Origin: an uncultured Planctomycetia bacterium
Lineage (GTDB): Bacteria; Omnitrophota; Gorgyraeia; 2-02-FULL-51-18
DNA length: 64,000 nt
Direction of reading: 5' to 3'
Assembly: GCA_964606485.1 (NCBI GenBank)
Contig: CAZSGP010000001.1
Coordinates: 289,085-353,084, forward strand
Position numbers and translations under genes: made by a program. The notes beneath the pieces were generated by a model. The model worked only from the letters and a program-made list of their open reading frames with translations, had not been told where the DNA came from and ran no database searches. This document shows, one piece after another, positions 4,797-61,130 of this stretch (position 1 is the first letter of the stretch; the number at the start of each line of letters is the position of its first letter).

Positions 4797-4942
4797 CACG
4801 CGTGCCCTATTTATATGGTATACTTATAGAGGGTATAAAAACCCTCCTCGACAAGGGCTAACCTGTGGTAACGCAGGGGCGCAAAGCCACAAGTCCTAAT
4901 ACGGACAGTTGGGCTACCGAGAAAGACGAGTGAATAAGTGCG

Positions 4943-44105: not shown

Positions 44106-44117
44106 GAGACCTGAGAA

Positions 44118-45194: not shown

Positions 45195-45199
45195 AGACA

Positions 45200-45640
45200 A
45201 TGCCACCTAGAAAAGTTATTCAAAAAAATTTAGGTCAAATCTTGATGGATTCCAAAATCATCACCCAAGAGCAATTGGACAATGCTCTTAAAACGCAGGA
45301 TGAGAAGGGTGGTCTGATCGGACAAATTTTGGTCTCGTTTGGGTTTACGACAGAAGATGCGATTGCCCGTGCGCTGACGGCGCAGTATGGTTTCCCGTAC
45401 ATGCCGCTTGCCGGTTATGAAATGGATGCGCAGGTGGTGAAGCTGATTCCTGAAAACGTCGCCCAACAGTACGAAATCGTGGCGGTGGACCGGATGGGCA
45501 ATGTTTTGACCGTGGCCATGTCTAATCCGCTGAATTATCAGGCCATCGAAGACATTGAAATGCTTACGAAATGCCGCATTCAAACTTTTGTTTCCACTTC
45601 GACAGATATTAAGGAAGCAATCGCAAAGTATTATAAATAG
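45200..45640 (+). CDS. Standalone GspE/MshE N-terminal (MshEN) domain protein, a putative c-di-GMP receptor
   Basis: Two copies of the MshEN-type motif: LGQILMDSKIITQEQLDNALKTQ and IGQILVSFGFTTEDAIARALTAQ. No ATPase domain. Confidence 0.75.
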   Translation: MPPRKVIQKNLGQILMDSKIITQEQLDNALKTQDEKGGLIGQILVSFGFTTEDAIARALTAQYGFPYMPLAGYEMDAQVVKLIPENVAQQYEIVAVDRMGNVLTVAMSNPLNYQAIEDIEMLTKCRIQTFVSTSTDIKEAIAKYYK

Positions 45641-45649
45641 AGGTTTCCA

Positions 45650-47386: not shown

Positions 47387-49155
47387 AAAACCTAAACGAA
47401 TTCTTAATGGACGGTCTCAAAAAATTCACCAAGGTCACCGAGGCGGATGTCCGAAAAGCCGTGGCACTTTATTCCAACAAAGAGAGCGGAAAAATCGGAG
47501 AGGCTCTCATTCAAATGGGGCTTGTCACTGAAAAGGATCTGCGGCTGCTTTTAAGTGTAGAATTAAAAATTACAACGGTAAGCCTTGCGGACAAAAAAAT
47601 AAGCTCTGAGATCGGAAAAATGGTGCCAGAGCGCTACGCGAAGCGGTATTTATTTGTCCCGCTTTCAAACGTGGGCAACACTCTAACGCTCGCGATGGTG
47701 GACCCGCTCAATATTTTTGCGCTCGACGACGTTTCGGTTCTTAAAAATAATCGCGTCGAGTGCGTGATGTGTTCGGAGGGAGATGTTCAGCTGGCGTTCG
47801 ACCGTATTTATGGACGCGTGAAGGATAAGCCTGTAACACCAGAGACGGGAGTAAAGCCTCTGACGGCTGCGGCTGCTGCGGCTAAAGTGGCCAATACGAT
47901 TGGGGATGTTCGCGTTCAGGACGAGACTGACTCCGGCATGTTCGCAGGGGAGACTAATCAGGCGCCAGTGGTTAAAATCGTGGACGCTATCCTGCAAGAG
48001 GCGTTGAGGCGTCGGGCAAGCGACATTCACATTGAGCCCTACGAAGAAAAAGTTCGGGTTCGCTTCCGTATCGACGGAGGACTGCAGGAAGCTCAGGGCG
48101 TTGAAGTTCCAAAGAAAAATCAAAACGCGGTTTTGACTCGTTTAAAGATCATGTCAAAGCTGGACATTACTGAAAACCGAATTCCACAGGACGGTCGTTT
48201 TAAAATTAAATTTCAACAAGACGGCAAAGAAAAGGAAATTGATTTTCGCGTATCAATCCTTCCGATTCACCACGGCAGTAAAGTGGTTATGCGTATTTTA
48301 GATAAAAGTGCTCTGAGTTTGGGACTGGATAATCTTGGATTTTTGCCTGAAACGTTGAATGCCTTTAAAGATGCCGTGGCAAAGCCCTTTGGAATGATAT
48401 TAATCACCGGCCCAACTGGAAGTGGAAAGTCCACCACACTTTACTCCATTTTAAATCAGCTCAACACGCCCGATAAAAATATTATCACCGTCGAAGAGCC
48501 GATCGAATACCAGGTTCGGGGGATTAGCCAGATTCAGGTGCGCCAGGAAATTGGTCTTGATTTTGCCAGCGGCCTTCGCGCTATTTTGCGTCAGAGCCCG
48601 GATGTGGTGATGGTGGGTGAAATCCGCGACGGAGAAACAGCCGACATCGCGATCAAAGCGTCGCTGACGGGACAAATTGTGCTCAGCACGCTTCACACCA
48701 ACGATGCGTCGGGTGCCGTCACCCGCTTGGCGGATATGGGCATCGAGCCCTTCTTAATCGCGTCCAGCGTAATTTTAGTCGCTGCACAACGCCTATGCCG
48801 AAAAGTTTGTTCACAATGCAAACAGCCGATTGATATTCCCAGAGAGGTGTTCGAGCGCATGGGTCTAAACCCCGATACAATGTTCCCGGATATCAAAGAA
48901 AAAAAATTCATGAAAGGCGTCGGATGCGAAAACTGCAGTTTTACCGGGTATCGCGGACGCATGGGGGTGCTTGAGACGCTGATGATTGACGACGAGCTCC
49001 GCGAACTCATCGTTAAACGCGCATCGTCTTATGAAATCAAAGATTATGCCGTCAAGCATGGCATGACAACCTTGAGAGAAGATGCGCTTAAAAAATTTTG
49101 TTTGGGTTCTACGACGCTCGACGAAGTGATTCGCATAACTGCAGAGGACGAATAA
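47383..49155 (+). CDS. PilB/GspE-family extension ATPase (paralogue 2)
   Basis: GPTGSGKSTT. C-terminal Cys4 (CSQCKQ...CENCSFTGYRGR). ATGA overlap with paralogue 1. Confidence 0.9.
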   Translation: MKNLNEFLMDGLKKFTKVTEADVRKAVALYSNKESGKIGEALIQMGLVTEKDLRLLLSVELKITTVSLADKKISSEIGKMVPERYAKRYLFVPLSNVGNTLTLAMVDPLNIFALDDVSVLKNNRVECVMCSEGDVQLAFDRIYGRVKDKPVTPETGVKPLTAAAAAAKVANTIGDVRVQDETDSGMFAGETNQAPVVKIVDAILQEALRRRASDIHIEPYEEKVRVRFRIDGGLQEAQGVEVPKKNQNAVLTRLKIMSKLDITENRIPQDGRFKIKFQQDGKEKEIDFRVSILPIHHGSKVVMRILDKSALSLGLDNLGFLPETLNAFKDAVAKPFGMILITGPTGSGKSTTLYSILNQLNTPDKNIITVEEPIEYQVRGISQIQVRQEIGLDFASGLRAILRQSPDVVMVGEIRDGETADIAIKASLTGQIVLSTLHTNDASGAVTRLADMGIEPFLIASSVILVAAQRLCRKVCSQCKQPIDIPREVFERMGLNPDTMFPDIKEKKFMKGVGCENCSFTGYRGRMGVLETLMIDDELRELIVKRASSYEIKDYAVKHGMTTLREDALKKFCLGSTTLDEVIRITAEDE

Positions 49156-50370: not shown

Positions 50371-51849
50371 TTGAAAACACGCCCACACTTTTTTTATATC
50401 ACCTTTATTTGCCTTGCAGGGTTTCTTGCGTATTCCAGCATTTTAAGCGGCGCATTTTTATGGGATGACATTAATTTAGTCCGCGACAATATCTTGATCC
50501 GCAGTTTTAAAAACCTCCCTCTCATTTTTTCTCACAACATCGGCGAGGGTTCCGCCGTGAGCTATATTTTTTACCGCCCCATGCAAGTCTTTAGTTATAT
50601 GTTGGATTTTTCGTGGTGGGGACTGAATCCGGATGGGTACCATTTGACGAACATCGTATGGCATCTTCTGGCTGCGAGTCTTGTTTATTTTGCTGCCTTT
50701 GAAATACTCAAAGATAAAACCGCTTCTTTTTTGACGGCACTTTTATTTGCGCTTCATCCGGTTCACACGGAGGCGGTGGCTTATATTTCAGGGCGCGCCG
50801 ATTCTCTTGCCCTTGTTTTTTTGCTGGCGGCTTTTTTAGGTTACCTGAAATCACTGGAATCTCGCAGGATTGGCATCCAAATAGCGTCAATAGCATTTTT
50901 TTTAATGGCCATTCTTTCAAAGGAAAGTGCGCTTATTTTTCCGGTGCTTATTTTTTTGCATCACCGCGTTTTTAAAACAAAATTTCCAGGACTCCTCTTT
51001 TGGTTATCGGTAGGGATCACCCTAGCCTACGGAGCGCTCCGGCTGACGCTCTTAAGGAGCTTCATGATTTTTGAGTCCGGACACGGAAATATTTTTGAAA
51101 GAATACCCGGATTTTTCGCGTCATATTTGAACTATCTCAAACTGCTCGTGTGGCCGTCGCCCTTGCACATGGAATATGGTTTTACGATTTACAAATGGTC
51201 CGATCCATTTGTCTGGGGCGGCGCTGTGGCGATGACCATTCTTTTACTAGTCATGGTTCAATTGTGGAGGCGAGGGGAACGCGCCATTTTTTTTGGGTGC
51301 GCCTGGTTTCTCGTTGCACTAATCCCTGTATCCAATTTATTTTTACTAAACGCCTCAATGGCGGAGCACTGGCTTTATGTTCCGTCGATTGGAGTTTTTC
51401 TAGCGTTGTCTGAGTGGACAGCACCTCTCTTCAAAAAGTCAAAATTAAAGGAATTGGCGGTGATCAGTGTTGCCGCAATTTTAGCAGGCTATGGACTCGC
51501 CACATTTGAACAGTCCAAAACATGGAAAGACCCGGTTATTTTTTACGAAAGAACGCTAGATTATGCCCCCAATAGTCTTGCCGTGAATGTAAATTTAGGG
51601 CTCGCACTTTATGAGAGAGGTGAAATTTCAAAAGCGTATCTTGTTTTTAAAAAAGCGGTGGAGCTTGGGCCGAATCAGTATTTCCCGTACTTTGGTCTGG
51701 GGTTGTGCGCAAATTCCTTGGGTAAACACCCGGAGGCGATAGCTGCCTACAACCGTTGCCTGGAGCTAAAGCCAGACTTGGTTCAGGCGCATAATAATTT
51801 ATCGGAAATTTATTACCCTAAAACTTTAAAAGGGGGAAGAGGTGAATAG
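50371..51849 (+). CDS. TMTC/PMT-like GT-C fold glycosyltransferase homologue (DUF1736-type) with C-terminal TPR repeats
   Basis: N-terminal FLWDDINLVRDN (acidic loop-1 motif) and GYHLTNIVWHLL resemble TMTC O-mannosyltransferases. Polytopic. C-terminal TPRs. Overlaps the pilin start. Confidence 0.65.
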   Translation: MKTRPHFFYITFICLAGFLAYSSILSGAFLWDDINLVRDNILIRSFKNLPLIFSHNIGEGSAVSYIFYRPMQVFSYMLDFSWWGLNPDGYHLTNIVWHLLAASLVYFAAFEILKDKTASFLTALLFALHPVHTEAVAYISGRADSLALVFLLAAFLGYLKSLESRRIGIQIASIAFFLMAILSKESALIFPVLIFLHHRVFKTKFPGLLFWLSVGITLAYGALRLTLLRSFMIFESGHGNIFERIPGFFASYLNYLKLLVWPSPLHMEYGFTIYKWSDPFVWGGAVAMTILLLVMVQLWRRGERAIFFGCAWFLVALIPVSNLFLLNASMAEHWLYVPSIGVFLALSEWTAPLFKKSKLKELAVISVAAILAGYGLATFEQSKTWKDPVIFYERTLDYAPNSLAVNVNLGLALYERGEISKAYLVFKKAVELGPNQYFPYFGLGLCANSLGKHPEAIAAYNRCLELKPDLVQAHNNLSEIYYPKTLKGGRGE

Positions 51850-52213
51850 AAGTTTAAGCGAGGCCGGATTTACACTCGTCGAAATTATGATCGTCGTAGC
51901 TATTATTGGATTGCTGGCTGCTATAGCGGTCCCTAACTTTGTCAGAGCCAGAGAATCCGCTCGCAGTAGCGCCTGCGTGAATAACTTGCGCCTAATTGAT
52001 GCGTCCAAAGAGCAGTATGCTTTGGAAAATAACATCGCGCATGGCGGGGCTACCACCTCTGATAGCCTGACGCCCTATCTGAAAAATAATGCATTTCCGC
52101 AGTGTCCGGCTACAAGTTCTACGTACGCCACGAATGCTGTGGGGACCTATCCTAGTTGCGACCTGTCAGGAGCCTCTTCCGGGCAAACCCCGCTGAGCCA
52201 TCGACTCAATTAA
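51842..52213 (+). CDS. Type IV pilin / pseudopilin (prepilin N-terminal methylation motif)
   Basis: Leader MNRSLSEAG followed by FTLVEIMIVVAIIGLLAAIAVPNF. Ser/Thr-rich C-terminal third. Confidence 0.8.
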   Translation: MNRSLSEAGFTLVEIMIVVAIIGLLAAIAVPNFVRARESARSSACVNNLRLIDASKEQYALENNIAHGGATTSDSLTPYLKNNAFPQCPATSSTYATNAVGTYPSCDLSGASSGQTPLSHRLN

Positions 52214-52334
52214 GTTCAGCTTGTTAATAGTGTAAATATATAAGTCTATAATGTTGATATTATTGATAACTATGTTATATTATAGTATATAAATAGTAAT
52301 TAATGATAAATTTAAAGCTAATTTTTCCTTAACT
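52214..52334. promoter_or_regulatory. AT-rich tract (>80% AT) separating the pilin gene from the downstream block. It contains TTGATA / TATATA-like promoter elements.
   Basis: Composition is sharply different from the flanking ~50% GC coding sequence. Confidence 0.3.
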
Positions 52335-53555
52335 GTGCAGTTGGTGCCGATGAGAAACTCATATCATTTATACGCTCCGGGAGATCAGTTTCAGATTGAT
52401 ATTAAATATCTCTCGGCCGGCGGTGAGCAGGCGAGTGAGAGTAAGGTTGTCAATGTGGCGGATGTGAGAGGCGGGGGTTTTTTTGGAAAAGTGCTGATCC
52501 TTCGGGGTGAGGGCTTTGTGATTAAAACAACTCAGCCCGATCCGTGGCAGCATTTTTGGAGAATTGTGAATTGGGATTTTAAGCCATTTCCAGCCCAGCA
52601 GGATGAATTATCCGCTCAGATCGAACACCTATCCACTCAGATCATTCACCTGACTCTCCCCATTGTTTCTGGGGGAAAGTTTTATAGTCCTCGGTCCATT
52701 GGCTACACGCTTTTAGCGAATGGATTCGCTCAAGTGATAGAGAAAATGAGCGGTCGAGGACCTCGTTTTGACAAGGCGGGCAATGAGTATGAGTTATTTC
52801 GCCAGGCGCAGTCGGAGCTCGCCACAATTGCTCTGAGTCTTGGATTGGAGGCTGTTGGACAAATTCATCCGGACAACCCTTTTAGTATGGCGAACCTGTG
52901 GTTAGACGAGAGCCGGAATCGCTTTGTCTGGCTGGATACAAACGCGGCAATTCGTCATACCGGTTGGGTGAAACCAATATTTTATTTCAAATTTCATAAG
53001 CGTATTCGAAATGAGTTTGGGGGTAAAGAGCTTACGTTTAATAAGATTCATGCTGACCGATTTCGCGCAACGCTTAAGCGGAAGCAAGGCGAATTTGATG
53101 AAAAAATTTACGCGATGATTATGAATTATTTAGATTTGTACGAACGTTTATGGAATAGACGAAAGGTTCGGCATGAAAATCAATCCTTTGATGTGGAGAA
53201 TGTCTTTCTTGTGCTGAGGCAGCTAGCCCTAAACATAGTCCCGGGTATTGTGCATGCGTTACGGAAGACGCTGATGTGTCCCATGCAGTTGGTGTTTAAG
53301 AGCCGGTTCGGTCATCAGCTACGACTTCAGTCCGCATTGCAGGCTTTGCAGTGTGGATTGCTATCGCAGGATGAATATTGCCAGGCTATAGATGGTGATC
53401 GAACGCTGCTTCGGCACTGTGTTATCCGAAAATTTATTCGTGATCTCTCTAAAATTAGTCCAGCCGGAGGTGTGGGGTCCCAGTTGGATGCGCAGCTTTG
53501 GCTCAAGTTAGGAAGTCGGATAGAGAAGATATTGGAAAGCCGGCAATGCGCTTAA
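52335..53555 (+). CDS. Atypical kinase-fold protein (eukaryotic-like kinase / APH / Kdo-kinase type)
   Basis: Gly-rich loop plus Lys (GGGFFGKVLILRGEGFVIK). Brenner-type catalytic motif HPDNPFSMANLW. WLDTN (DFG-like). GTG start at 52335 or ATG at 52350. Confidence 0.45.
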   Translation: MQLVPMRNSYHLYAPGDQFQIDIKYLSAGGEQASESKVVNVADVRGGGFFGKVLILRGEGFVIKTTQPDPWQHFWRIVNWDFKPFPAQQDELSAQIEHLSTQIIHLTLPIVSGGKFYSPRSIGYTLLANGFAQVIEKMSGRGPRFDKAGNEYELFRQAQSELATIALSLGLEAVGQIHPDNPFSMANLWLDESRNRFVWLDTNAAIRHTGWVKPIFYFKFHKRIRNEFGGKELTFNKIHADRFRATLKRKQGEFDEKIYAMIMNYLDLYERLWNRRKVRHENQSFDVENVFLVLRQLALNIVPGIVHALRKTLMCPMQLVFKSRFGHQLRLQSALQALQCGLLSQDEYCQAIDGDRTLLRHCVIRKFIRDLSKISPAGGVGSQLDAQLWLKLGSRIEKILESRQCA

Positions 53556-56500
53556 TAGAGAAGGAGGGGCAAGGGAGAAATTTTGTGAGACTTTGCGTTA
53601 AGCTTCTTTTGATTTTTGATGTGATTCTTTGCTTGCTGCACCAGCTATTTCCGCATTATCAATGGGGTCAGGGCAGGAGCTCCTATTTCACTCTCTCAAG
53701 TGCAATGACACTGAGTTCTTGGTTTATCAGTATGCAGTTAATCGGGATATCGATCTTCTCATTGCTAACTCTTCTTAAGAGGTGGGACTGGGGGCGACGG
53801 GGTACTTTTCAATGGGTTTGGTTTTTATTGGTATCGGCCGCGTTATCCGTGGCGGAGTTTACGCGATTTCATATCAAAATGAACTTTCTCAATCCCCTTG
53901 ATTCAAACATCTTTCATTCGATTGGAGTCTATCTGCTTGGGGGTATGTTTTTAGGTGTAAGCGGCACACTCATCTGGATGACGCCTGGAGCCTCGTTGCG
54001 GACGAAAATCTTGAGCTTTGGGTGGCTTCTATCGTGGTTGGGCGCAGGCTTATTAACACTGGGTAGCGCATGGGCGCCCGCTGATTGGATGGGCGCGGTT
54101 GCCTATTTATTTGGCACTACGTTGTGGCTAGCGGTAGCTTCAGAACTCTATTTTCAAGAACCAAGTCAGGAGCATCGTGCCGATAACGCCAAAGAAGCTC
54201 CTCCTGTTTCAATTGGCTCAACATGGCTGCTGCTGGGAGTTGCGGGAAGCTCATTTACGATGATTTTTTTACAAGTACTACACTTTCAAATTTTGACCGT
54301 TGCGGTGGATACCCTGGCCGCGCACTCTGTGCTTCCGCTCGCACTCATTGGAATTGCCGTGGGAGGAATTCTGGGGTTGAGAATATCGAGAATGGATTCG
54401 GCGGGGCAATTGAGCGTCGGACTTGCGGCGCTACTGCCAATTTCAATTTGTGCTAGTTTTGCTGTGGCGTCAAATGAGCCCTCACATTTAGCGCTTGGTT
54501 TGGCGCTACTTTTTATTCCGTTTATGATTTGCGGCGCACTCATCACATTAGGTCTCGTATGGTTGCAACCGAGCGTTGTGTATTGTGTGGATTTATTGGG
54601 AGCGGCGCTAGGCGCTTTTTGTCTTCCCTTTTGTTTGGCTTATTTTCAAGAGGAGGGTAGTCTTTGGTTTTTAGCGGCAATCGCTTGCTTGGTAGCCGTT
54701 TGTTTTGCAAAGGCTTATCGAATGTTCGGCCGCCGATTCTCCGTAATCCCCTATCTGGCGCTCGCTGGGTTTATGGCGTTCACGGCAATGGCTTATACGC
54801 AAAAACAGGGGCAGGGGCTGAATATCGTAGCCCCTAAAATCCAGGCGAGCTTTCCCGGCTCAGAAATCATTTTTTCAAAGTCATCTTTTGTAGGGCGGGT
54901 TGATTTGGTACGACGAAGCCGTAAAAGCGATTTGCTAAAGGCCTATGAGAACGGTTTTACCATTGATACGATTCGCAAAAATATCCCTGAGCAGTATCAA
55001 ATCGATCCGCGGATACCCAGCCGGCTGGCAACGAACCCAAAAATTCTTATTCTAGGTCTTGCTGGAGATGGGGTTACTAAAACGGCCAAACAACTGAGCA
55101 ACTCCGTCACGGGAGTAGAGATAAACCCTGCCATGGTTGCTTTACAGAAGAGTGAAGCCTCTGAATTTAACGCAAACAGTTACCAGGGCATCGATGTCAA
55201 GGTTATGGATGCCCGCAGCTTTCTTCAAACTAGTTCCGAACAATATGACGTCCTTACTCTATTAAACGCGCACACTGCTCGCGGCCGGGCGCATTATAGC
55301 GGGGTCAGTGCTGAGTATCTCCATACCAAAGAGGCGGTGCGAGAGTATTGGGATCATATGACTCCAAGAGGATTTCTAAGCATTGAGGAGCCCGCTGATC
55401 GCCCATCAAAGGAGCCTGGCATCTGGAAGTTTCTGGTAACCATGCGGGGCGCTCTGTTGGATGCGGGAGCACAGAACCCTGAAAATCATTTTTTTGTTTT
55501 TCAATGGAAGACAAAATCAAATAATTACATCCAGATCATCCTAAAGAAGTCTCCCTTTACGCAAGAGCAAATCTCCGATTTAAAAAAATGGCTCGATGAG
55601 ATTGATCGGTTGCGAGAAATAGAGAAAATCCAGCAGAGGCGTCTAGGACCCATAGACTGCAAAACAACTTTGCTTTACTCGCCCGGGGAGAATGTTCAAA
55701 CCACCTATGCCAACCTGATTCGCGGAACTGCTAACCCGCAATTGCACAAACAGCGCAACCTAGTTCCGGCGACTGATGACCGGCCATTTTTGTTTAACAC
55801 CGATCCTCGGCAGGGGGCTTTGTACAGTGTTTATCTGCGAACGCTTCTATTGGTTTTACTTCTGGGAGCTTGGTTGATAGGGTTGATGAGAAAACAAAAT
55901 GCCAAGTCATTTGAAGTTCTATCAGTGCTGTGCATGGCATCGTTAACAGGCGTTGGGTATTTATTGGTAGAGCTTGTCTTGATGCAGCGGTATCAAATTT
56001 TTTTAGGGTCTCCCGTCACGGTGTTTTGCGTGGTTTTAGGATCTATGCTGGTATTCTCAGGTTTAGGCAGTTTGTGGGGTGCCCGCCACGGTTTGAGGGC
56101 TATGGTGTTTTCAATTATTGGCGTGGTGGTGAATTTATGGATGCACCAGCAGTTTGCCCCCATTTTTTTGGATAAATTTTCCAATCAAGCATTGATCATA
56201 AAGTGCTTTATTACCATAGCGAGTTTAGCCCCGTTATCATTTTTTATGGGAGTTCCATTTCCTTACCTTATCCAGAATATTAAAGAGCGTTTAAACGCCT
56301 CATTTGCCGGGGCGGCGGTTGCCGCAAATGCAGGGGCAAGTGCGCTTGGTGTCCCCCTAGCATTGATGCTTTCGATGAAACTAGGTTTTAACGGTGCATT
56401 TGCCTGCGCTATGCTTATTTATGGTGCGGTTGCCGTTTCGTTTTTTTGGATGAACCGGAATAGGTTTGCTATAGCAGGATTTTTTTCTTTGACGATTCTC

Positions 56501-57343
56501 GCGGTAACGTTGGCCAGCCCAACCTTGATTAATTTGTGTTCCGGTGATTTGAAAGACAAAAATAATGGATACCAGGTTTATGGAATTCGTTACGGACGAT
56601 CACTCATGGCTGAACGACAGCTGATTCGCGGGGGGGATAAAAATAAGAAGGTTTCTTTGGATTGGAGATTTTGGCTCGTTCAGGGGTCTGGTAAAAATAT
56701 ACTGGTTGATACGGGTTTTGAAAATCCATCTTTGGCGCGCCAGAAGCATTTTTCAAAGTATGTTCGCCCATCAAAAAAACTTTCCGATCTTGGAATAGAG
56801 CCTTCTGAAATTACGGATGTGATTTTGACTCATGCGCATTGGGATCACGCGGGCGGTGTGCGGATGTACCCGAATGCCGTTATCTGGATGCAGAGCCGAG
56901 AGTGGGAGCATATGCTCCAGCTAAAAGTGAGCAATCAAAAAAAGGTTAAGGGTATGCGATACAAGGATTTCGAGGCGCTAGAACAAGCTTATGAGCAAGG
57001 CCGTTTACGATTGTTGAGCGGAGATGCGGATGTAGCTAGCGGCATTCGTGTTGAACTGGGTGGCGGACACACGCCCGGGTCTCAGGCGGTGATCGTCAAG
57101 GGCTTGGAAGGCAATTTTATTATCGCGGGGGACACCACTTATCTTTATCGAAACAGCCAATGGCATCAACCGATTGGGGGCGGTGCGGATTCCGAAGAAA
57201 ATTTACGAATGATTCGGCGTTTTCACGCAGACTCAGCGTCCCCTTACTATATTTTACCCGGACACGATCCATTGATTGGCCGGTGTTTTCCGGAGGTTGC
57301 CAAAGGAATTGTTGAGATCACCTCCGCGGCGGAGCGTCGATGA
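53546..57343 (+). CDS. Giant polytopic membrane protein fusing a spermidine-synthase-like domain and a C-terminal MBL-fold (lactonase-like) domain
   Basis: About 440 aa of transmembrane helices. PABS-like region ILILGLAGDG...VTGVEINPAMVAL...DVKVMDARSFL...YDVLTLL. A second transmembrane block. C-terminal HAHWDHAGG (HxHxDH, AiiA-like). The start could instead be the track's 53498. Confidence 0.7.
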   Translation: MRLIEKEGQGRNFVRLCVKLLLIFDVILCLLHQLFPHYQWGQGRSSYFTLSSAMTLSSWFISMQLIGISIFSLLTLLKRWDWGRRGTFQWVWFLLVSAALSVAEFTRFHIKMNFLNPLDSNIFHSIGVYLLGGMFLGVSGTLIWMTPGASLRTKILSFGWLLSWLGAGLLTLGSAWAPADWMGAVAYLFGTTLWLAVASELYFQEPSQEHRADNAKEAPPVSIGSTWLLLGVAGSSFTMIFLQVLHFQILTVAVDTLAAHSVLPLALIGIAVGGILGLRISRMDSAGQLSVGLAALLPISICASFAVASNEPSHLALGLALLFIPFMICGALITLGLVWLQPSVVYCVDLLGAALGAFCLPFCLAYFQEEGSLWFLAAIACLVAVCFAKAYRMFGRRFSVIPYLALAGFMAFTAMAYTQKQGQGLNIVAPKIQASFPGSEIIFSKSSFVGRVDLVRRSRKSDLLKAYENGFTIDTIRKNIPEQYQIDPRIPSRLATNPKILILGLAGDGVTKTAKQLSNSVTGVEINPAMVALQKSEASEFNANSYQGIDVKVMDARSFLQTSSEQYDVLTLLNAHTARGRAHYSGVSAEYLHTKEAVREYWDHMTPRGFLSIEEPADRPSKEPGIWKFLVTMRGALLDAGAQNPENHFFVFQWKTKSNNYIQIILKKSPFTQEQISDLKKWLDEIDRLREIEKIQQRRLGPIDCKTTLLYSPGENVQTTYANLIRGTANPQLHKQRNLVPATDDRPFLFNTDPRQGALYSVYLRTLLLVLLLGAWLIGLMRKQNAKSFEVLSVLCMASLTGVGYLLVELVLMQRYQIFLGSPVTVFCVVLGSMLVFSGLGSLWGARHGLRAMVFSIIGVVVNLWMHQQFAPIFLDKFSNQALIIKCFITIASLAPLSFFMGVPFPYLIQNIKERLNASFAGAAVAANAGASALGVPLALMLSMKLGFNGAFACAMLIYGAVAVSFFWMNRNRFAIAGFFSLTILAVTLASPTLINLCSGDLKDKNNGYQVYGIRYGRSLMAERQLIRGGDKNKKVSLDWRFWLVQGSGKNILVDTGFENPSLARQKHFSKYVRPSKKLSDLGIEPSEITDVILTHAHWDHAGGVRMYPNAVIWMQSREWEHMLQLKVSNQKKVKGMRYKDFEALEQAYEQGRLRLLSGDADVASGIRVELGGGHTPGSQAVIVKGLEGNFIIAGDTTYLYRNSQWHQPIGGGADSEENLRMIRRFHADSASPYYILPGHDPLIGRCFPEVAKGIVEITSAAERR

Positions 57344-59907
57344 TGAGACCATCCGAGCGGCTTTTGAACATTTTGTTGTTTAGCCTGTTTGCCGCGGCAG
57401 TTATTTTTGGTGTGCTGCACGGCGTGTACCAGGATTGGCAGGTGGGTGGAGTGGAGTGGTTTAATCTGGACCGGGAGAGAAATTTTCCAACATGGTTTTC
57501 AGGTTTTGTGCTTTTTTTGATGGGTTGCTCCTCTGTGGTTGCCTACTACTGGGAAAAGAAGCGATTGGCTGAGGGGGTTAAGCACTTTAAGCTGCCGGTG
57601 CTATGGTTAGGAGTGGCGTTTTTAAGCTTTTTAATGTCACTAGATGAAATGACCGCGCTTCACGAGAATATTTGCTGGCGCGAGATTCGTCAGTTTTCCG
57701 CTTCAAAAGGCGGGGGCTTCGAGCATGTCACCCAATGGCAAATTCTTTTTATCCCGCTTCTATTGATCATCTTTTCTTACTTCGCCGTGTTTTTTTTAAA
57801 TCGATTTGCTTCTAGCGCCCGCATGCGCTTTTGGGGTCTGTCGGGCCTAGGGTGCCTGCTGTTTTCTATCGCTTTGGAGGGGCTAAGAAATTGGTTTAAA
57901 CATCATGGGCACGACTTTTACAGCGCACAGGTTTTGGGTGAGGAATTATTAGAAATGTTTGGGATGTTGTTTATTTTTGGAGCCATTCAGTTCTACGTGA
58001 AAGATATTTCTAACAGCTCCGCGGGCTTAAACCCAAAGAGACTGCCAGTAGGACCTGCTTTTTTTACTCGCAAATCCGCGGGAGCTCTTTTAATACTATT
58101 TGTCGCCTTTACGTTACTCGCACTGCTTGCGTATAAAACAGCTGCGAGCTTATCGAAAAAAGGGGTGGGGGCACCCAAATTGTTTGATCAAGCTCTTCGT
58201 TCCAACTTAAAGGAGACAAACGAAAAATCGGTGGTATGGTTTGAAAATGTTGAAGGTGTTGGCAATACCTTAACTTTCGAACAGGGGGCTCAAATGGTTC
58301 GCTCCGCGCACCTAGCGCTGAAATCACCTGGCGAGACTGCTCATAGTTGGCCGCTAGATCTATCGAATGATCAAGCCCCTAGAATCGCATTTCTTTCAGT
58401 AACCACTGGTAAGTCTAGGGCCCGAGTTTTTTCTGGGACGGGCCTCGGTTACACAAAGGCTCTGGAGCAATCGATAGTAAAGGCTCGCAAGGTTTTTAAA
58501 AACTCTCAGAAAAATTTATGGGTTAAGCTGGATATCGTTTCAGAGGTCAGAGTTGCGGCTTCTAATAACCCGGATGATTTTGAAGGGCTTAGTTTTGGTC
58601 TAGAGGGTATTGCCACCGGCAAACCGTCGCCTTCCGCGCTTATACCGGAAGTTCTTTCCTCGCGCGGTTACATCAGTTCCGCGGGCCGCCCCACCTCAAA
58701 GCTTACGGAATGGATCTCCAATAGAAAAGAAGCCCAAAACATTTTCCGCTTTAAAACAAAAAGTTATTTTAGCGACAAAGATACGGTTGTGGAGCTCTAT
58801 AGGGGTCATCGGGTGTACGATCAGCTGAGTCGAGAGATTTTGATGGATTCAGCAAAACGCGCAGGCGAATACCTTGTGAGAAATACGGATGAGAACGGAC
58901 GATTTAATTATATTTATAAGCCCGAAGTGAACCGGGTGATAAATTCATATAACGTGGTGCGTCATGCGGGAACCCTCTATTCAATGATGGAGCTTTATGA
59001 GGCGGCACCGGATCCAGAGCTTTTATCGGCCGCCACCCGCGCTATTAGCCACTTATTGAGTTATGCGCGACCTGTGGAGACTCGTTTGGGCAATGCGCTT
59101 GCAATTGTGGACGGGACGAGTGTGAAACTTGGAGCCAATGCTCTGACGGTTGTTGCATTATCAAAGTATATGCAAGTCACCGGAGACCGTAAAGAGGCGG
59201 ATAAGTTAATCAAGCTCGGCCTTTATATTCGAGATTCACAACTAGAATCTGGCGAGTTTATTTGTAAACGAGAGCACCCTAGCGGCAATCAAATTCCATT
59301 TCAATCGGAGTACTACCCCGGCGAAGCTATATTGGCCATGGTCAGGCTCTATGAACATGATCCGCAACCTTACTGGCTAGACAGCGCCCAAAAAGCTACC
59401 GATTTTCTGATTCATGTCAGGGATAAGGGTTTAGCGACGGAAAAGCTCATCCATGATCATTGGCTTATTATGGGATTAAATGCTCTGGCTGAACACAGAC
59501 CGGACGCTAGTCATACCCAGCATGCCCTTCGAATTGCGGAGGCTATTATGAAGAGCCAGATTCAACATTCAGCCATAGAAGATTATATCGGGGGATGGGG
59601 CGAGCCCCCGCGGGCTACGCCTGCCGCTACTCGAAGCGAAGGTTTGATAGCGGCTTATCGAATAGCCGAGCGGCAAGGAATGAATGATTTTAAAATTAAG
59701 GTAATGGACTCGCTGGGGAAGGCTGTCAAATTTCAGCTAGGAAACCAATTTGGGTCCGAATCTTCCATGTATATGCCATTCCCAAAAAAATCAATCGGCG
59801 CCTATCGCCGTAGTCATTTATCCTACGAGACACGAATTGACTATAGCCAACATAACATCTCTAGTTTAATAGGGTTATGTAGTATTCTTAATAAGTTAGA
59901 AGATTAA
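57340..59907 (+). CDS. Membrane protein with a large C-terminal soluble alpha-helical (toroid-like) domain
   Basis: About 280 aa N-terminal transmembrane region. ATGA overlap with the upstream ORF. No confident domain assignment. Confidence 0.5.
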   Translation: MMRPSERLLNILLFSLFAAAVIFGVLHGVYQDWQVGGVEWFNLDRERNFPTWFSGFVLFLMGCSSVVAYYWEKKRLAEGVKHFKLPVLWLGVAFLSFLMSLDEMTALHENICWREIRQFSASKGGGFEHVTQWQILFIPLLLIIFSYFAVFFLNRFASSARMRFWGLSGLGCLLFSIALEGLRNWFKHHGHDFYSAQVLGEELLEMFGMLFIFGAIQFYVKDISNSSAGLNPKRLPVGPAFFTRKSAGALLILFVAFTLLALLAYKTAASLSKKGVGAPKLFDQALRSNLKETNEKSVVWFENVEGVGNTLTFEQGAQMVRSAHLALKSPGETAHSWPLDLSNDQAPRIAFLSVTTGKSRARVFSGTGLGYTKALEQSIVKARKVFKNSQKNLWVKLDIVSEVRVAASNNPDDFEGLSFGLEGIATGKPSPSALIPEVLSSRGYISSAGRPTSKLTEWISNRKEAQNIFRFKTKSYFSDKDTVVELYRGHRVYDQLSREILMDSAKRAGEYLVRNTDENGRFNYIYKPEVNRVINSYNVVRHAGTLYSMMELYEAAPDPELLSAATRAISHLLSYARPVETRLGNALAIVDGTSVKLGANALTVVALSKYMQVTGDRKEADKLIKLGLYIRDSQLESGEFICKREHPSGNQIPFQSEYYPGEAILAMVRLYEHDPQPYWLDSAQKATDFLIHVRDKGLATEKLIHDHWLIMGLNALAEHRPDASHTQHALRIAEAIMKSQIQHSAIEDYIGGWGEPPRATPAATRSEGLIAAYRIAERQGMNDFKIKVMDSLGKAVKFQLGNQFGSESSMYMPFPKKSIGAYRRSHLSYETRIDYSQHNISSLIGLCSILNKLED

Positions 59908-59950: not shown

Positions 59951-59978
59951 TTGACATTTATTAAATATAATATATAAT
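59951..59978 (+). promoter_or_regulatory. Consensus sigma70 promoter TTGACA-16-TATAAT inside an AT-rich tract, upstream of the minor-pilin operon
   Basis: Exact -35 and -10 hexamers with a 16-nt spacer. About 65 nt upstream of ATG 60046, which has an AAGGAGA ribosome-binding site. Confidence 0.5.
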
Positions 59979-60045: not shown

Positions 60046-60612
<567 letters not shown>

Positions 60613-60641
60613 TTATGAGCAGTAGAAGAAAAGGAGTTTTT

Positions 60642-61130
60642 GTGAAAAGCGCAGATAGATCGGGATTCACGTTGGTAGAGGTACTGCTTGCATCGGTGCT
60701 AGCGATCGTGGCCCTTACGGCTGTAGGGCTCCTGATTACCGACAGCGGTGTTTTTGCTTCGCGAAACAACCGATCGAATGTATATGCGTTAAACGCTGTT
60801 CGTGAGCAAATTGAAGATATTCGCAACACCAACTTCGATACTCTCATCGGTTATGGTAGCCCCTATTCGTTTACCAACGCTCAGTTGGCTATGATCCCTG
60901 GGGCAATTGGGAGTGTTGTTTTGGCTGATGCGGCAGGAAGTGATATTAAAAAGATCACCGTCTCTGTTACCTGGGTTGGAGCGAAAGGAGAAAGCCTTTC
61001 TACGAGTGCAACGACTCAAATTTCTCGCTCCGGGATCAATAGTGGATCCGGTGTTGCAAGAAGCCCATCTGGCGGCGATGATGACGATGACGATGATGAC
61101 GACGATGACGGCGATGACGACGATGATTAG
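60642..61130 (+). CDS. Paralogous GspI/PilV-like minor pilin with a shorter poly-Asp tail
   Basis: GTG start with an AAGGAG ribosome-binding site. RSGFTLVEVLLASVLAIV. About 60% identical to the upstream paralogue. Tail D11-G-D5. Confidence 0.8.
   Translation: MKSADRSGFTLVEVLLASVLAIVALTAVGLLITDSGVFASRNNRSNVYALNAVREQIEDIRNTNFDTLIGYGSPYSFTNAQLAMIPGAIGSVVLADAAGSDIKKITVSVTWVGAKGESLSTSATTQISRSGINSGSGVARSPSGGDDDDDDDDDDDGDDDDD
61077..61127 (+). repeat. In-frame (GAY)n repeat encoding D11-G-D5
   Basis: Direct reading. Confidence 0.9.

What the first reader, a model, noticed from the sequence alone, without database searches (positions are those of the whole stretch)
53546..57343. A 1266-aa polytopic protein fuses a spermidine-synthase-like fold to an AiiA-like metallo-beta-lactamase domain
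Read directly from the sequence, the protein has an N-terminal transmembrane block of about 440 aa. A region then aligns along the PABS/spermidine-synthase fold (GLAGDG dcSAM-like loop, VEINP, VKVMDARSFL, YDVLTLL). A second transmembrane block follows, and then a C-terminal MBL domain with HAHWDHAGG, the HxHxDH zinc motif typical of N-acyl-homoserine lactonases. Fused MFS/spermidine-synthase proteins are known from genome annotations. The additional lactonase-like domain and the overall size are unusual. They suggest a membrane-embedded enzyme that couples an aminopropyl or methyl transfer to a hydrolytic step on an unknown substrate at the envelope.
Basis: partly seen in the sequence, partly recalled or inferred. 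Interest (0 to 1): 0.62.

Follow-up and report, generated by a model that had tools for sequence, protein, structure and literature searches.

The report
Periplasm-facing spermidine-synthase-like/lactonase-like membrane fusion protein
This is a real, conserved 21-helix inner-membrane protein that most likely displays a remodelled spermidine-synthase-like domain and a lactonase-type zinc hydrolase on the outer (periplasmic) face and works with the sugar-enzyme-like membrane protein encoded next to it; nobody has studied this system, so its substrate is unknown.

Summary
The ORF (53546-57343, +, 1265 aa) is real and uninterrupted. Collinear full-length homologues (about 40% identity) occur in Planctomycetota, Acidobacteriota, Nitrospinaceae and Calditrichaceae MAGs, so it is not a frameshift or an assembly join.

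Both domain calls hold:
- The centre is homologous to polyamine aminopropyltransferases (family profile vs 1uir, E 4e-16). The two active-site Asp are replaced by L573 and an invariant H576, so it is not a canonical spermidine synthase. It is nevertheless the most conserved part (61% pairwise identity).
- The C-terminus is an AiiA-clade metallo-beta-lactamase (MBL) with every zinc ligand and the catalytic Tyr.

New findings:
1. Four lines of evidence place both soluble domains in the periplasm: charge bias, TM parity, signal peptides on free-standing MBL relatives, and signal anchors on split partner genes.
2. The downstream 855-aa gene is a conserved partner. It shares a paralogous 6-TM N-terminal module with the fusion and carries an (alpha/alpha)6 sugar-enzyme-like domain.
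3. The module lies beside pilin or minor-pilin genes in 4 of about 11 loci (a fifth, L008, has one pilin-like gene 4.6 kb away).

Best reading: an extracytoplasmic envelope, glycan or pilin tailoring complex with an unknown substrate. It is a new variant of known kinds. Interest 0.6.

The parts
53546..57343 (+). Fusion gene, 1265 aa, about 21 TM helices
   Evidence: ORF and translation. Collinear homologues P0002-P0010 and L002-L017. AF2 model of residues 215-1265: pLDDT 89.7, pTM 0.90.
53546..54190 (+). N-module (residues 1-215): 6 TM helices, paralogous to the N-terminus of the downstream partner. Signature LH..(W/Y)F..(T/S)W ... S..E.T
   Evidence: hhalign gives Prob 98%, E 1.8e-13 over 196 columns. 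Controls against the other TM blocks give Prob <=2.5%. Shared invariant columns H, F, W, W, E, T.
54212..54805 (+). 7-TM unit A (residues 223-420, TM7-13). Its end resembles the membrane domain of PRK03612-type membrane-bound SpeE
   Evidence: Hydropathy. NCBIfam PRK03612 match spans residues 344-570. Alternating K/R-rich loops.
54833..55810 (+). PABS/spermidine-synthase-like domain (residues 430-755), predicted periplasmic. It has GLAGDG, E525, D555/R557 and Y567-D568. L573 and H576 stand where the two active-site Asp residues of SpeE lie. An invariant TDDRPF motif lies at 743-748
   Evidence: DSSP shows an N-terminal beta sub-domain followed by a Rossmann core. It is the most conserved region: 61% pairwise identity, 28% invariant columns.
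55823..56536 (+). Linker helix TM14 plus 7-TM unit B (residues 760-997, TM14-21)
   Evidence: Hydropathy. Weak similarity of unit A to unit B: hhalign E 1.3e-3, Prob 18.5%, 161 columns.
56573..57340 (+). AiiA-clade metallo-beta-lactamase domain (residues 1010-1265), predicted periplasmic. Key residues: D1055, H1096-x-H1098-x-D1100-H1101, H1175, D1196, Y1199, H1240
   Evidence: Pfam PF00753 E 1.7e-20. PDB sequence hits 8x78, MPH, AiiA. Foldseek TM-score up to 0.80. The key residues are invariant in 10 homologues. Free-standing relatives carry signal peptides.
57340..59907 (+). Partner gene, 855 aa. Its start overlaps the fusion's stop (ATGA). Layout: N-module (6 TM) + TM7 + alpha/beta domain + (alpha/alpha)6 barrel
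   Evidence: 36-41% identical proteins lie directly downstream of the fusion in L002, L006, L008, L010 and L011, and split versions in L003, L009, L014, L015 and L017. AF2 pLDDT 88.2. Foldseek finds cellobiose 2-epimerase, GH76 and GH88 at E 3e-8.
52335..53555 (+). Orphan 406-aa soluble ORF whose stop overlaps the fusion's start. It is probably co-transcribed and is not conserved in other loci
52224..52283 (+). Promoter-like sites ahead of the 406-aa ORF. Consensus matches only
51842..52213 (+). Type IV pilin-like gene (GFTLVE) directly upstream of the operon
   Evidence: Pfam N_methyl. Motif scan.
60046..61130 (+). Two paralogous minor-pilin-like genes (GFTLVE) directly downstream, behind a perfect sigma-70 consensus at 59951-59978

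Best explanation
The gene encodes an inner-membrane protein whose N-terminus is cytoplasmic and which crosses the membrane about 21 times. It consists of a 6-TM N-module, a 7-TM unit followed by a periplasmic spermidine-synthase-fold domain, a linker helix, and a second 7-TM unit followed by a periplasmic dizinc MBL hydrolase of the lactonase (AiiA) clade. It works together with the co-translated downstream protein. That partner carries a paralogous 6-TM N-module, which I infer is the contact between the two proteins, and it displays an alpha/beta domain and an (alpha/alpha)6 sugar-enzyme-like domain on the same side of the membrane. Together they form an extracytoplasmic tailoring or processing complex for an envelope or secreted glycoconjugate. 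In the genomes where the module lies in a minor-pilin operon, as here, the substrate is plausibly a type IV pilus component or its glycan.

The MBL domain is catalytically competent and hydrolyses a lactone or ester-type bond. This is inferred from the complete metal site plus the Tyr. The spermidine-synthase-like domain is strongly constrained and functional, but it is not a canonical aminopropyltransferase. It most likely binds an adenosyl-type ligand and acts as a methyl or alkyl transferase, or as a substrate-holding module. The precedent is the fungal 7TM-SpdS-like methyltransferase NHMT, which acts on secretory-pathway proteins.

Shown here: the fusion, the domain identities, the lost Asp pair, the conserved partner and the shared N-module. 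Well supported but computational: the periplasmic orientation. Inferred: complex formation, the substrate class and the chemistry.
For: The fusion is real and conserved.

Domain identities.

Topology:
- Mean K+R is 23.5 in the predicted inside loops against 6.8 in the outside loops of the fusion family. The same alternation appears in 28 distant core-family proteins.
- The N-module alternates in the same way in the partner family, with a basic N-terminus.
- In split systems the partner's soluble domain carries a signal anchor (L015) or a lipoprotein-like signal (L009).
- Six of seven complete free-standing MBL relatives (33-44% identity) have lipobox or Sec signal peptides, and the seventh has a hydrophobic N-terminal anchor or signal.
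- The parity 6+7 TM and then 8 TM puts both domains on the side opposite the N-terminus.

Partner: the partner or its N-module lies directly downstream in every locus that extends far enough, except the L004/L005 pair. N-module homology has Prob 98% with clean controls. The partner has a six-hairpin fold.

The SpeE-like domain is the most conserved part.

Related core proteins carry other envelope-type or hydrolase modules: AT3 acyltransferase, Amidohydro_2 + PGA_cap, Lactamase_B_3.

Pilin or minor-pilin genes lie adjacent in WIN, L006, L011 and L015.

NHMT precedent: PMC10349129.
Against: No experiment exists for any member of the family. SAM and dcSAM are not known to be available in the bacterial periplasm, yet the nucleotide-binding positions (Gly-rich loop, E525, D555) are kept, and this tension is unresolved. 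The DSSP string of the model shows three very long continuous helices where I count helical hairpins (TM11-12, TM16-17, TM19-20). I could not inspect coordinates, so the TM count rests on hydropathy, charge bias and the external signal-peptide evidence. The segment just after the partner's TM7 is also K/R-rich. The pilin neighbourhood is absent from more than half of the loci, and its excess over chance was not tested statistically. Complex formation through the N-modules is an inference.
Confidence: 0.55

Rival explanations
1. Membrane-anchored quorum-quenching enzyme. The periplasmic AiiA-like domain hydrolyses incoming N-acyl-homoserine lactones, and the rest of the protein is an anchor or transporter, as in QsdH, where a lactonase domain is fused to an RND membrane protein.
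For: The best PDB matches are AHL lactonases, and the HxHxDH/H/D/Y/H set is complete. A precedent exists for a membrane-fused AHL-degrading domain (PMC3466314). Its closest free-standing relatives are exported.
Against: Scores are far below every NCBIfam lactonase equivalog cut-off, for example AiiA 63.7 against 375. The same MBL clade also holds methyl parathion hydrolase and pyridoxolactonase. This reading does not explain the strongly conserved SpeE-like domain or the obligatory six-hairpin partner. In related core proteins the MBL is replaced by Amidohydro_2 + PGA_cap.
Confidence: 0.12
2. A cytoplasm-facing aminopropyl (dcSAM) or methyl (SAM) transferase is fused to a transporter-like (MFS) membrane domain and a hydrolase, and it makes and exports a modified polyamine or similar small molecule.
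For: There is homology to SpeE, and the ribose- and adenine-binding acids E525 and D555 are retained. Relatives are named 'spermidine synthase' by their sources. NCBIfam PRK03612 matches at E 6.5e-14.
Against: The two active-site Asp residues are replaced by L573 and H576 in all ten fusion homologues. No MFS family matches even at E<=1. Four lines of evidence place the domains outside the cytoplasm.
Confidence: 0.1
3. Dedicated type IV pilin or pseudopilin post-translational modification enzyme, analogous in logic to TfpO/PglL, TfpW or PptA. It would be a polytopic inner-membrane enzyme with periplasmic catalytic domains, encoded among the pilin genes, that decorates or trims a pilin modification.
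For: The module sits between a pilin gene and minor-pilin genes in the window. It is divergent from a FimT/PilV/PilW/PilX operon in L011, lies next to three pilin-like genes in L015, and is followed by a T2SSG-like pilin in L006. The orientation is periplasmic. NHMT shows that 7TM-SpdS-like enzymes can modify exported proteins.
Against: No pilin genes lie within 10 kb in L002, L003, L004, L007 or L009, and only one distant gene in L008. Pilin-like genes are numerous in Planctomycetota (own knowledge), so some adjacency is expected by chance.
Confidence: 0.18
4. Artefact: two or three genes joined by a frameshift or a chimeric assembly.
For: None found. A few relatives are split or truncated (L004 copy 2, L012-L014), as expected for fragmentary MAG contigs.
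Against: Single ORF with even composition. More than 20 representative clusters contain 1230-1330-aa proteins aligned end to end. Collinear genes occur in MAGs of at least four phyla. The identical protein is on record from two sources. The AF2 model packs all domains with pTM 0.90.
Confidence: 0.01

Closest known systems
Membrane-bound 'polyamine aminopropyltransferase' family (NCBIfam PRK03612; the JGI name given to P0008 pairs a glyoxylase-like metal-dependent hydrolase with a 'predicted membrane-bou...' entry (name truncated), which I take, from own knowledge, to be COG4262 'predicted spermidine synthase with an N-terminal membrane domain'), and the roughly 750-830-aa TM-SpeE-like-TM proteins
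   Same: A 7-TM unit is followed by a PABS-fold domain. PRK03612 matches residues 344-570. Hundreds of roughly 760-800-aa relatives align over residues 226-970.
   Different: The score is 51 bits against a cut-off of 472. The two active-site Asp residues are absent. There is an extra 6-TM N-module and an extra C-terminal MBL domain. No member of the double-TM family has been characterised (searches found no literature).
Soluble spermidine synthase / polyamine aminopropyltransferase (SpeE; PDB 1uir, 1inl, 3o4f)
   Same: The fold has an N-terminal beta sub-domain plus a Rossmann core. There is profile-level homology. The acidic residues at the ends of beta2 and beta3 and the D(A/G)R.F(L/V) motif resemble those of T. 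thermophilus SpeE.
   Different: L573 and H576 replace D158 and D161 of 1uir. The acid of GGGEG aligns with G507, and D508 lies one position later. The domain is embedded between membrane blocks and predicted to be periplasmic.
Fungal NHMT (A. nidulans AN4663), a 7TM + SpdS-like N-terminal histidine methyltransferase of secreted LPMOs (PMC10349129)
   Same: Both have seven TM helices followed by a spermidine-synthase-like domain that is not a spermidine synthase. Both act on substrates of the secretory pathway, that is, on the trans side of the membrane. In NHMT the TM domain is required for activity.
   Different: NHMT is eukaryotic and resides in the ER, has a single 7-TM unit, and lacks an MBL domain and a partner. 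Sequence relatedness of the TM domains could not be tested here. NHMT has Ile at the GxG(D/E)G acid position, whereas this family has G-D.
MBL-fold lactonases (AiiA, AiiB, GcL/AaL, P. poae 8x78) and their relatives methyl parathion hydrolase and 4-pyridoxolactonase
   Same: The alpha-beta/beta-alpha fold matches (TM-score up to 0.80). HxHxDH, H, D, H and the Tyr three residues after the bridging Asp are all retained.
   Different: Identity is 17-24%, and scores are far below the equivalog cut-offs. The domain is tethered to a 21-TM protein, whereas AiiA is cytoplasmic (own knowledge). Its closest relatives are uncharacterised exported lipoproteins.
QsdH of Pseudoalteromonas (AHL-degrading domain fused to an RND-type inner-membrane protein; PMC3466314)
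   Same: The concept is the same: a lactone-hydrolysing domain built into a polytopic inner-membrane protein (abstract only).
   Different: QsdH uses a GDSL hydrolase rather than an MBL, and an RND scaffold. There is no homology.

Membership tests
PABS / polyamine aminopropyltransferase (SpeE) | Two-domain PABS fold (N-terminal beta sub-domain plus class-I Rossmann core) and profile-level homology | tested here: met
   Family profile A2 against PDB: 1uir E 4.2e-16, 3o4f 3.7e-12, 1inl 1.1e-10, while generic methyltransferases score E >= 0.01. Foldseek finds 1uir and 1inl at E 3-4e-7. Four beta strands precede the Rossmann core in the model.
PABS / polyamine aminopropyltransferase (SpeE) | Curated family thresholds (Pfam PF01564, NCBIfam PRK03612 / TIGR00417) | tested here: not met
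   PF01564 is not reported for the query at E<=1. Only weak Methyltransf_25 and Methyltransf_11 matches appear. PRK03612 scores 51.2 bits against a cut-off of 472.
PABS / polyamine aminopropyltransferase (SpeE) | The two active-site Asp residues of the D-x-x-D-P motif after beta4 (D158 and D161 in 1uir), one the catalytic base and the other an amine-binding residue | tested here: not met
   YDVVIID-LTDP of 1uir aligns with YDVLTLL-NAHT. That gives L573 and H576, with N574 and H576 invariant in the 10 fusion homologues.
PABS / polyamine aminopropyltransferase (SpeE) | Acidic residue in GxG(D/E)G that selects dcSAM over SAM | tested here: inconclusive
   The profile alignment puts G507 opposite the Glu of GGGEG and the invariant D508 one position later. 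Coordinates could not be inspected to decide whether D508 takes that role.
PABS / polyamine aminopropyltransferase (SpeE) | Catalytic domain in the cytoplasm, where dcSAM is made | tested here: not met
   The domain is predicted to be periplasmic from charge bias, TM parity and exported split or free-standing relatives. This is computational only.
AHL lactonase (AiiA-type MBL) | MBL fold with the dinuclear site HxHxDH ... H ... D ... H | tested here: met
   PF00753 E 1.7e-20. H1096, H1098, D1100, H1101, H1175, D1196 and H1240 are invariant. Foldseek finds 8x78 at E 4.6e-14 with TMt 0.79-0.80.
AHL lactonase (AiiA-type MBL) | Catalytic Tyr three residues after the bridging Asp (AiiA D191/Y194, numbering from own knowledge) | tested here: met
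   GDTTY aligns with IDASY of AiiA (4j5f) and with GDIVY of 8x78. Y1199 is invariant.
AHL lactonase (AiiA-type MBL) | Equivalog-level similarity to a characterised lactonase family (AiiA, AidB, YtnP, AttM, AhlS) | tested here: not met
   Scores are 63.7, 52.9, 47.9, 38.7 and 37.6 bits against cut-offs of 360-475.
AHL lactonase (AiiA-type MBL) | Hydrolysis of N-acyl-homoserine lactones | not testable with these tools
   This needs an enzyme assay.
Fused MFS / spermidine synthase (MFS transporter fold) | MFS-type membrane domain (12 TM as 6+6, with MFS profile matches) | tested here: not met
   No MFS family appears in Pfam or NCBIfam at E<=1. The layout is 6 + 7 + 1 + 7 TM segments.
7TM-SpdS-like methyltransferase (NHMT type) | Seven TM helices directly followed by a SpdS-fold domain that lacks spermidine-synthase catalytic features and faces the trans side | tested here: met
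   TM7-13 are followed by the domain at 430-755. The Asp pair is absent. The orientation is predicted periplasmic. The comparison rests on the paper's description.
7TM-SpdS-like methyltransferase (NHMT type) | Sequence or structure homology of the TM domain to NHMT, and SAM-dependent methyl transfer | not tested
Activity needs an experiment.

The most novel reading that the evidence does not exclude
Bacteria possess an extracytoplasmic adenosyl-cofactor (SAM-type) transferase system. The paired 7-TM units of this protein would convey or present the cofactor across the inner membrane to a periplasmic, re-tooled spermidine-synthase domain. That domain, together with a lactonase-type hydrolase and a six-hairpin sugar-enzyme partner, would install or edit a so far unknown modification on type IV pilus subunits or envelope glycans.
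Probability: 0.12. Interest if true: 0.85.

Novelty: new variant of a known kind. Interest (0 to 1): 0.6.

Why it matters
Spermidine-synthase-fold enzymes are regarded as cytoplasmic and dependent on SAM or dcSAM. Here a very strongly conserved member of that fold, with a rewritten catalytic motif, is predicted to sit in the periplasm. It is welded to a complete lactonase-type zinc hydrolase and paired with a sugar-enzyme-like partner through a shared, undescribed 6-TM module. The system is spread over several poorly studied phyla: Planctomycetota including the anammox genus Scalindua, Acidobacteriota, Nitrospinaceae and Calditrichaceae. If the orientation and activity are confirmed, this would define a new class of envelope or pilus tailoring machinery. 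It would also give the large, unannotated family of 'membrane spermidine synthases' its first functional handle, and it would raise the question of how an adenosyl cofactor could be used outside the cytoplasm. At a practical level, it warns that 'spermidine synthase' annotations on these membrane proteins are probably wrong.

Tried and rejected
- BLASTP of the two N-terminal membrane modules against each other found nothing. Only profile-profile comparison revealed the homology.
- A single-sequence search of the central domain against PDB gave only E 0.11 to a methyltransferase. The family profile was needed.
- Literature searches for 'fused MFS' + 'spermidine synthase', 'membrane-bound spermidine synthase' and 'spermidine synthase-like' + 'transmembrane' found nothing relevant.
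- The organism of the window could not be named.
- The upstream 406-aa ORF has no match in Pfam, NCBIfam, PHROGs or PDB and no counterpart in other loci.
- An all-against-all comparison of neighbouring ORFs in the loci then in hand (the window and L002-L014) found no further conserved gene beyond the fusion and the partner. The other clusters were shadow ORFs.
- The idea that the type IV pilus context is universal was rejected.
- The MFS idea was rejected.
- The frameshift or assembly-artefact idea was rejected.


Full report
**1. Observation**

An uninterrupted ORF runs from ATG 53546 to the stop at 57341-57343 on the + strand. It has 1266 codons including the stop, so the protein is 1265 aa. 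An alternative TTG start lies 48 nt upstream. I re-derived their coordinates: GLAGDG at 55055-55072, LLNAHT at 55259-55276 and HAHWDH at 56831-56848. GC content is even across the gene. The exact protein is on record from two sources, a 546-kb NCBI contig and a Logan assembly of SRR12487046.

**2. Is the fusion real?**

A word-indexed search of 5.8 billion proteins returned nine further proteins of 1051-1303 aa. They are 39-46% identical over 82-100% of the query. A ten-sequence alignment is collinear from end to end.

An exhaustive HMMER scan of 1.84 billion cluster representatives found roughly 20-25 clusters of 1230-1330-aa proteins aligned over essentially the whole query. It also found three other kinds of relative:
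- many proteins of about 750-800 aa that match only residues around 226-970 (the 'core': TM block, SpeE-like domain, TM block);
- a few proteins with the N-terminal part but no MBL domain;
- free-standing MBL proteins of 250-320 aa that are 33-44% identical to the C-terminus.

A scan of one genome per species found the full fusion in MAGs labelled Candidatus Scalindua, Planctomycetales, Acidobacteriota, Nitrospinaceae and Calditrichaceae. A frameshift or a chimeric join is therefore excluded.

**3. Domain identities**

*C-terminal domain*
- Pfam reports Lactamase_B at residues 1043-1212 (E 1.7e-20).
- The best PDB sequence matches are a P. poae AHL lactonase (8x78), methyl parathion hydrolase and AiiA.
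- AlphaFold2 on residues 215-1265, using a 38-sequence alignment, gave pLDDT 89.7 and pTM 0.90. Foldseek against PDB put AHL lactonases first (8x78 at E 4.6e-14, TM-score 0.79-0.80; then GcL, AaL, AiiA, AiiB).
- All MBL metal ligands are invariant in the family: D1055, H1096-x-H1098-x-D1100-H1101, H1175, D1196 and H1240. Y1199 aligns with the Tyr that follows the bridging Asp in AiiA and 8x78 (GDTTY against IDASY and GDIVY).
- The domain is nevertheless far below every NCBIfam lactonase equivalog cut-off. It belongs to the lactonase clade of the MBL fold, but its substrate is unknown.

*Central domain*
- For the query alone, Pfam shows only weak methyltransferase matches for the central region.
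- NCBIfam matches PRK03612, the membrane-bound polyamine aminopropyltransferase family, at E 6.5e-14 over residues 344-570. That stretch covers the last TM helices and the start of the soluble domain.
- A profile of the 38-member core family hits T. thermophilus SpeE (1uir) at E 4.2e-16. About twenty further spermidine and thermospermine synthase entries also rank ahead of the first generic methyltransferase (E 0.011).
- Foldseek independently finds 1uir and 1inl at E 3-4e-7.
- The model shows the PABS-typical N-terminal beta sub-domain ahead of the Rossmann core.

**4.

In the profile alignment, YDVVIID-LTDP of 1uir corresponds to YDVLTLL-NAHT in this protein. D158 and D161, the two active-site Asp residues, are therefore L573 and H576 here. 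N574 and H576 are invariant in all ten fusion homologues. The roughly 800-aa core relatives mostly keep only the second Asp.

The acid of the GGGEG loop aligns with G507, and the invariant D508 follows one position later. That point is unresolved.

The residues that bind ribose and adenine in this fold are kept: E525 in VEINP, and D555 in MDARSF, a motif very like DDARAY of 1uir.

The domain is not a decaying relic. It is the most conserved part of the protein, with 61% mean pairwise identity and 28% invariant columns, against 51% and 22% for the MBL domain and 38-49% for the membrane parts. It is a constrained, functional domain with a rewritten catalytic motif. It is not a canonical spermidine synthase.

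**5. Membrane architecture**

Family-averaged hydropathy gives 21 TM segments: 6 (residues 14-205), 7 (227-418) and 8 (763-995). No MFS family matches even at E<=1.

Profile-profile comparison aligns TM7-12 with TM15-20 weakly (E 1.3e-3, Prob 18.5%, 161 columns; both share an E-x4-(Q/R)-R motif in the first helix). This suggests two 7-TM units joined by a linker helix, TM14, with each unit followed by a soluble domain. This internal repeat is tentative.

**6. Which side do the domains face?**

Four independent lines agree.

- (a) *Positive-inside rule.* In the ten fusion proteins the loops alternate cleanly. Mean K+R sums to 23.5 in the loops predicted to be cytoplasmic and 6.8 in the others. 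The same alternation holds in the 28 distant core proteins, at about 11.5 against 2.5. The N-terminus is then cytoplasmic. The loops flanking the SpeE-like domain (TM12-13 and TM14-15) are both K/R-rich and hence cytoplasmic, which places the domain outside.
- (b) *Parity.* Eight TM segments separate the SpeE-like and MBL domains, so both lie on the same side.
- (c) *Free-standing MBL relatives.* Of the seven complete free-standing relatives of this MBL domain, five have lipoprotein-type signal peptides (P0163, P0164, P0200, P0205, P0206), one has a Sec signal (P0213) and one has a hydrophobic anchor (P0214). This MBL clade is exported.
- (d) *Split partner genes.* The partner protein (section 7) occurs in split form in some genomes. 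There its soluble part carries an N-terminal signal anchor (L015: MVWPKVYRK-TVLLIIFFLLVIGGMVYLF) or a lipoprotein-like signal (L009). In the fused form that part follows 7 TM segments. So the homologous N-module starts and ends in the cytoplasm, as in the fusion.

One caveat applies. The DSSP string of the model shows TM11-12, TM16-17 and TM19-20 as continuous helices, and I could not inspect coordinates. I read these as tight helical hairpins, because each contains two hydrophobic stretches of 20 or more residues and a short polar turn.

**7. A conserved partner and a shared membrane module**

The next gene (57340-59907, 855 aa) starts at an ATGA overlap with the fusion's stop. Proteins 36-41% identical to it lie directly downstream of the fusion in L002, L006, L008, L010 and L011.

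In L003, L009, L015/L016 and L017 only its first roughly 300 aa are encoded there. In L009, L015 and L017 the rest is a separate gene nearby. In L014 the partner is present downstream but broken into pieces.

An all-against-all comparison of neighbouring ORFs found no other conserved gene.

AlphaFold2 (pLDDT 88.2) plus Foldseek shows that the partner's C-terminal half is an (alpha/alpha)6 barrel. It resembles cellobiose 2-epimerase and AGE-family isomerases, GH76 and GH88 (E 3e-8 and weaker).

Its N-terminal roughly 230 aa (6 TM) are homologous to the fusion's first roughly 210 aa. hhalign gives Prob 98% and E 1.8e-13 over 196 columns, whereas the same profiles against the other TM blocks give Prob <=2.5%. 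A joint alignment shows the shared invariant residues H, F, W, W, E and T (LH ... (W/Y)F ... (T/S)W ... S..E.T).

The module also exists as free-standing proteins of about 295 aa. The two whose contexts were examined (P0218 and P0222) lie directly next to a fusion gene. No Pfam or NCBIfam model covers it.

**8. Wider context**

*In the window.* The genes 52335-59907 overlap at both junctions: an orphan 406-aa ORF, the fusion and the partner. They sit between promoter-like sites at 52224-52283 and a perfect TTGACA-16-TATAAT at 59951-59978 (consensus matches only). They are embedded in a type IV pilus cluster:
- a PilT-like ATPase, an MshEN protein, two PilB-like ATPases, PilC and a TPR protein;
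- a pilin immediately upstream;
- two minor-pilin-like genes, a DUF7305 protein, a phytase-like protein and a second pilin downstream.

*In other loci.* This context is not universal. It does recur:
- a FimT/GspH-PilX-PilW-PilV operon lies divergently upstream in the Nitrospinaceae locus L011;
- three pilin-like genes flank the module in L015;
- a T2SSG-like pilin follows the partner in L006;
- in the Scalindua locus L008 a single pilin-like gene lies 4.6 kb upstream, a much weaker link.

*Other fusions of the core family.* Other members are fused to different modules: Amidohydro_2 + PGA_cap, Lactamase_B_3, or an N-terminal AT3 acyltransferase. A partner-family member is fused to PGA_cap. These are metal hydrolases, or modules known from extracytoplasmic polymer modification (own knowledge for AT3 and CapA).

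**9. Literature**

No paper on bacterial TM-SpeE-like-TM proteins was found.

The closest characterised analogue is fungal NHMT (AN4663). It has a 7-TM domain followed by a spermidine-synthase-like domain, is not a spermidine synthase, and methylates the N-terminal His of secreted LPMOs in the ER. Its TM domain is required for activity, and the authors note that SAM supply in that compartment may be limiting (PMC10349129).

QsdH is a precedent for a lactone-hydrolysing domain built into a polytopic inner-membrane protein (PMC3466314, abstract only).

**10. Interpretation**

*Best explanation (0.55).* This is a heteromeric, periplasm-facing tailoring or processing complex for an envelope or secreted glycoconjugate.
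- The MBL domain is an active lactone or ester hydrolase.
- The partner's six-hairpin domain handles a sugar.
- The SpeE-like domain is either a re-tooled transferase (methyl or alkyl, by analogy with NHMT) or a substrate-holding domain.
- The two paralogous N-modules are the likely interface.
- Where the module sits in a minor-pilin operon, the target may be a pilus component. This sub-hypothesis is listed separately at 0.18.

*Rivals.* A periplasmic quorum-quenching lactonase (0.12), a cytoplasmic aminopropyl or methyl transferase coupled to export (0.10), and an artefact (0.01).

*Unresolved.* The main puzzle is how a domain that keeps its adenosyl-binding positions would obtain a cofactor in the periplasm.

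**11. Novelty and score**

Each domain belongs to a known fold family. IMG's automatic annotation has already given at least one homologue (P0008) a dual hydrolase / 'predicted membrane-bound ...' name (truncated in the output). Three things appear to be undescribed:
- the architecture (N-module + 7 TM + SpeE-like + 8 TM + MBL);
- its predicted orientation;
- the obligatory partner with a shared, unannotated membrane module.

I rate it a new variant of known kinds, with interest 0.6.

Noticed in passing
window 4847-4922 (+): A c-di-GMP-I (GGC variant) riboswitch aptamer scores above the Rfam gathering threshold (65.2 bits, E 3.9e-13). It is the only Rfam hit in the window.
   Followed up: no
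window 43209-49155 (+): A GGDEF/HAMP diguanylate cyclase is followed by a PilT-like ATPase, a free-standing 146-aa MshEN-domain protein and two tandem PilB/GspE-type ATPases that each carry an MshEN domain. This looks like a c-di-GMP-controlled, MSHA-like pilus system with duplicated assembly ATPases.
   Followed up: no
window 52335-53555 (+): An orphan 406-aa soluble ORF has a stop that overlaps the fusion's start. It has no match in Pfam, NCBIfam, PHROGs or PDB and no counterpart in other loci. By eye it has a Gly-rich GGGFFGKV...IKT stretch and an HPDN...N...D pattern reminiscent of kinase-like folds. That reading is mine and untested.
   Followed up: partly
window 59951-59978 (+): A perfect sigma-70 consensus (TTGACA, 16 nt, TATAAT; 12 of 12) lies in the 138-nt gap between the partner gene and the first minor-pilin gene. 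This suggests that the minor pilins are transcribed separately.
   Followed up: no
window 51842-52213, 60046-60612 and 60609-61130; L001 20981-21352: Pilin genes are duplicated around the module. The 123-aa pilin has a 73.5%-identical copy about 12 kb downstream, beyond the window. The two adjacent minor-pilin-like genes are 64% identical to each other.
   Followed up: no
L009 10001-13738 and 20019-23717; L004 23-3517 and 10001-13156: Some genomes carry two copies of the fusion within 10-15 kb. One is the Planctomycetales MAG L009. In the other, L004, one copy is split into two ORFs.
   Followed up: no
P0126, P0203, P0143, P0156, P0062 (proteins): Relatives of the TM-SpeE-like-TM core carry other add-ons: Amidohydro_2 + PGA_cap at the C-terminus, Lactamase_B_3 at the C-terminus, or an N-terminal AT3 acyltransferase. 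A partner-family protein is fused to PGA_cap. The core seems to be a platform for exchangeable hydrolase or modification domains.
   Followed up: partly
L002 4879-9801; L007 556-3975 and 4960-9075: Very large repeat proteins (1139-1640 aa), partly SdrD_B-like and otherwise without Pfam matches, lie directly upstream of the fusion in two loci and are related to each other.
   Followed up: no
L011 4219-5025 (-) and 16262-19834 (-): In the Nitrospinaceae locus the module is also flanked by a PAP2 phosphatase, a divergent polysaccharide deacetylase (PF04748) and a hybrid histidine kinase with a PilJ N-terminal domain. These are envelope and pilus-signalling genes.
   Followed up: no
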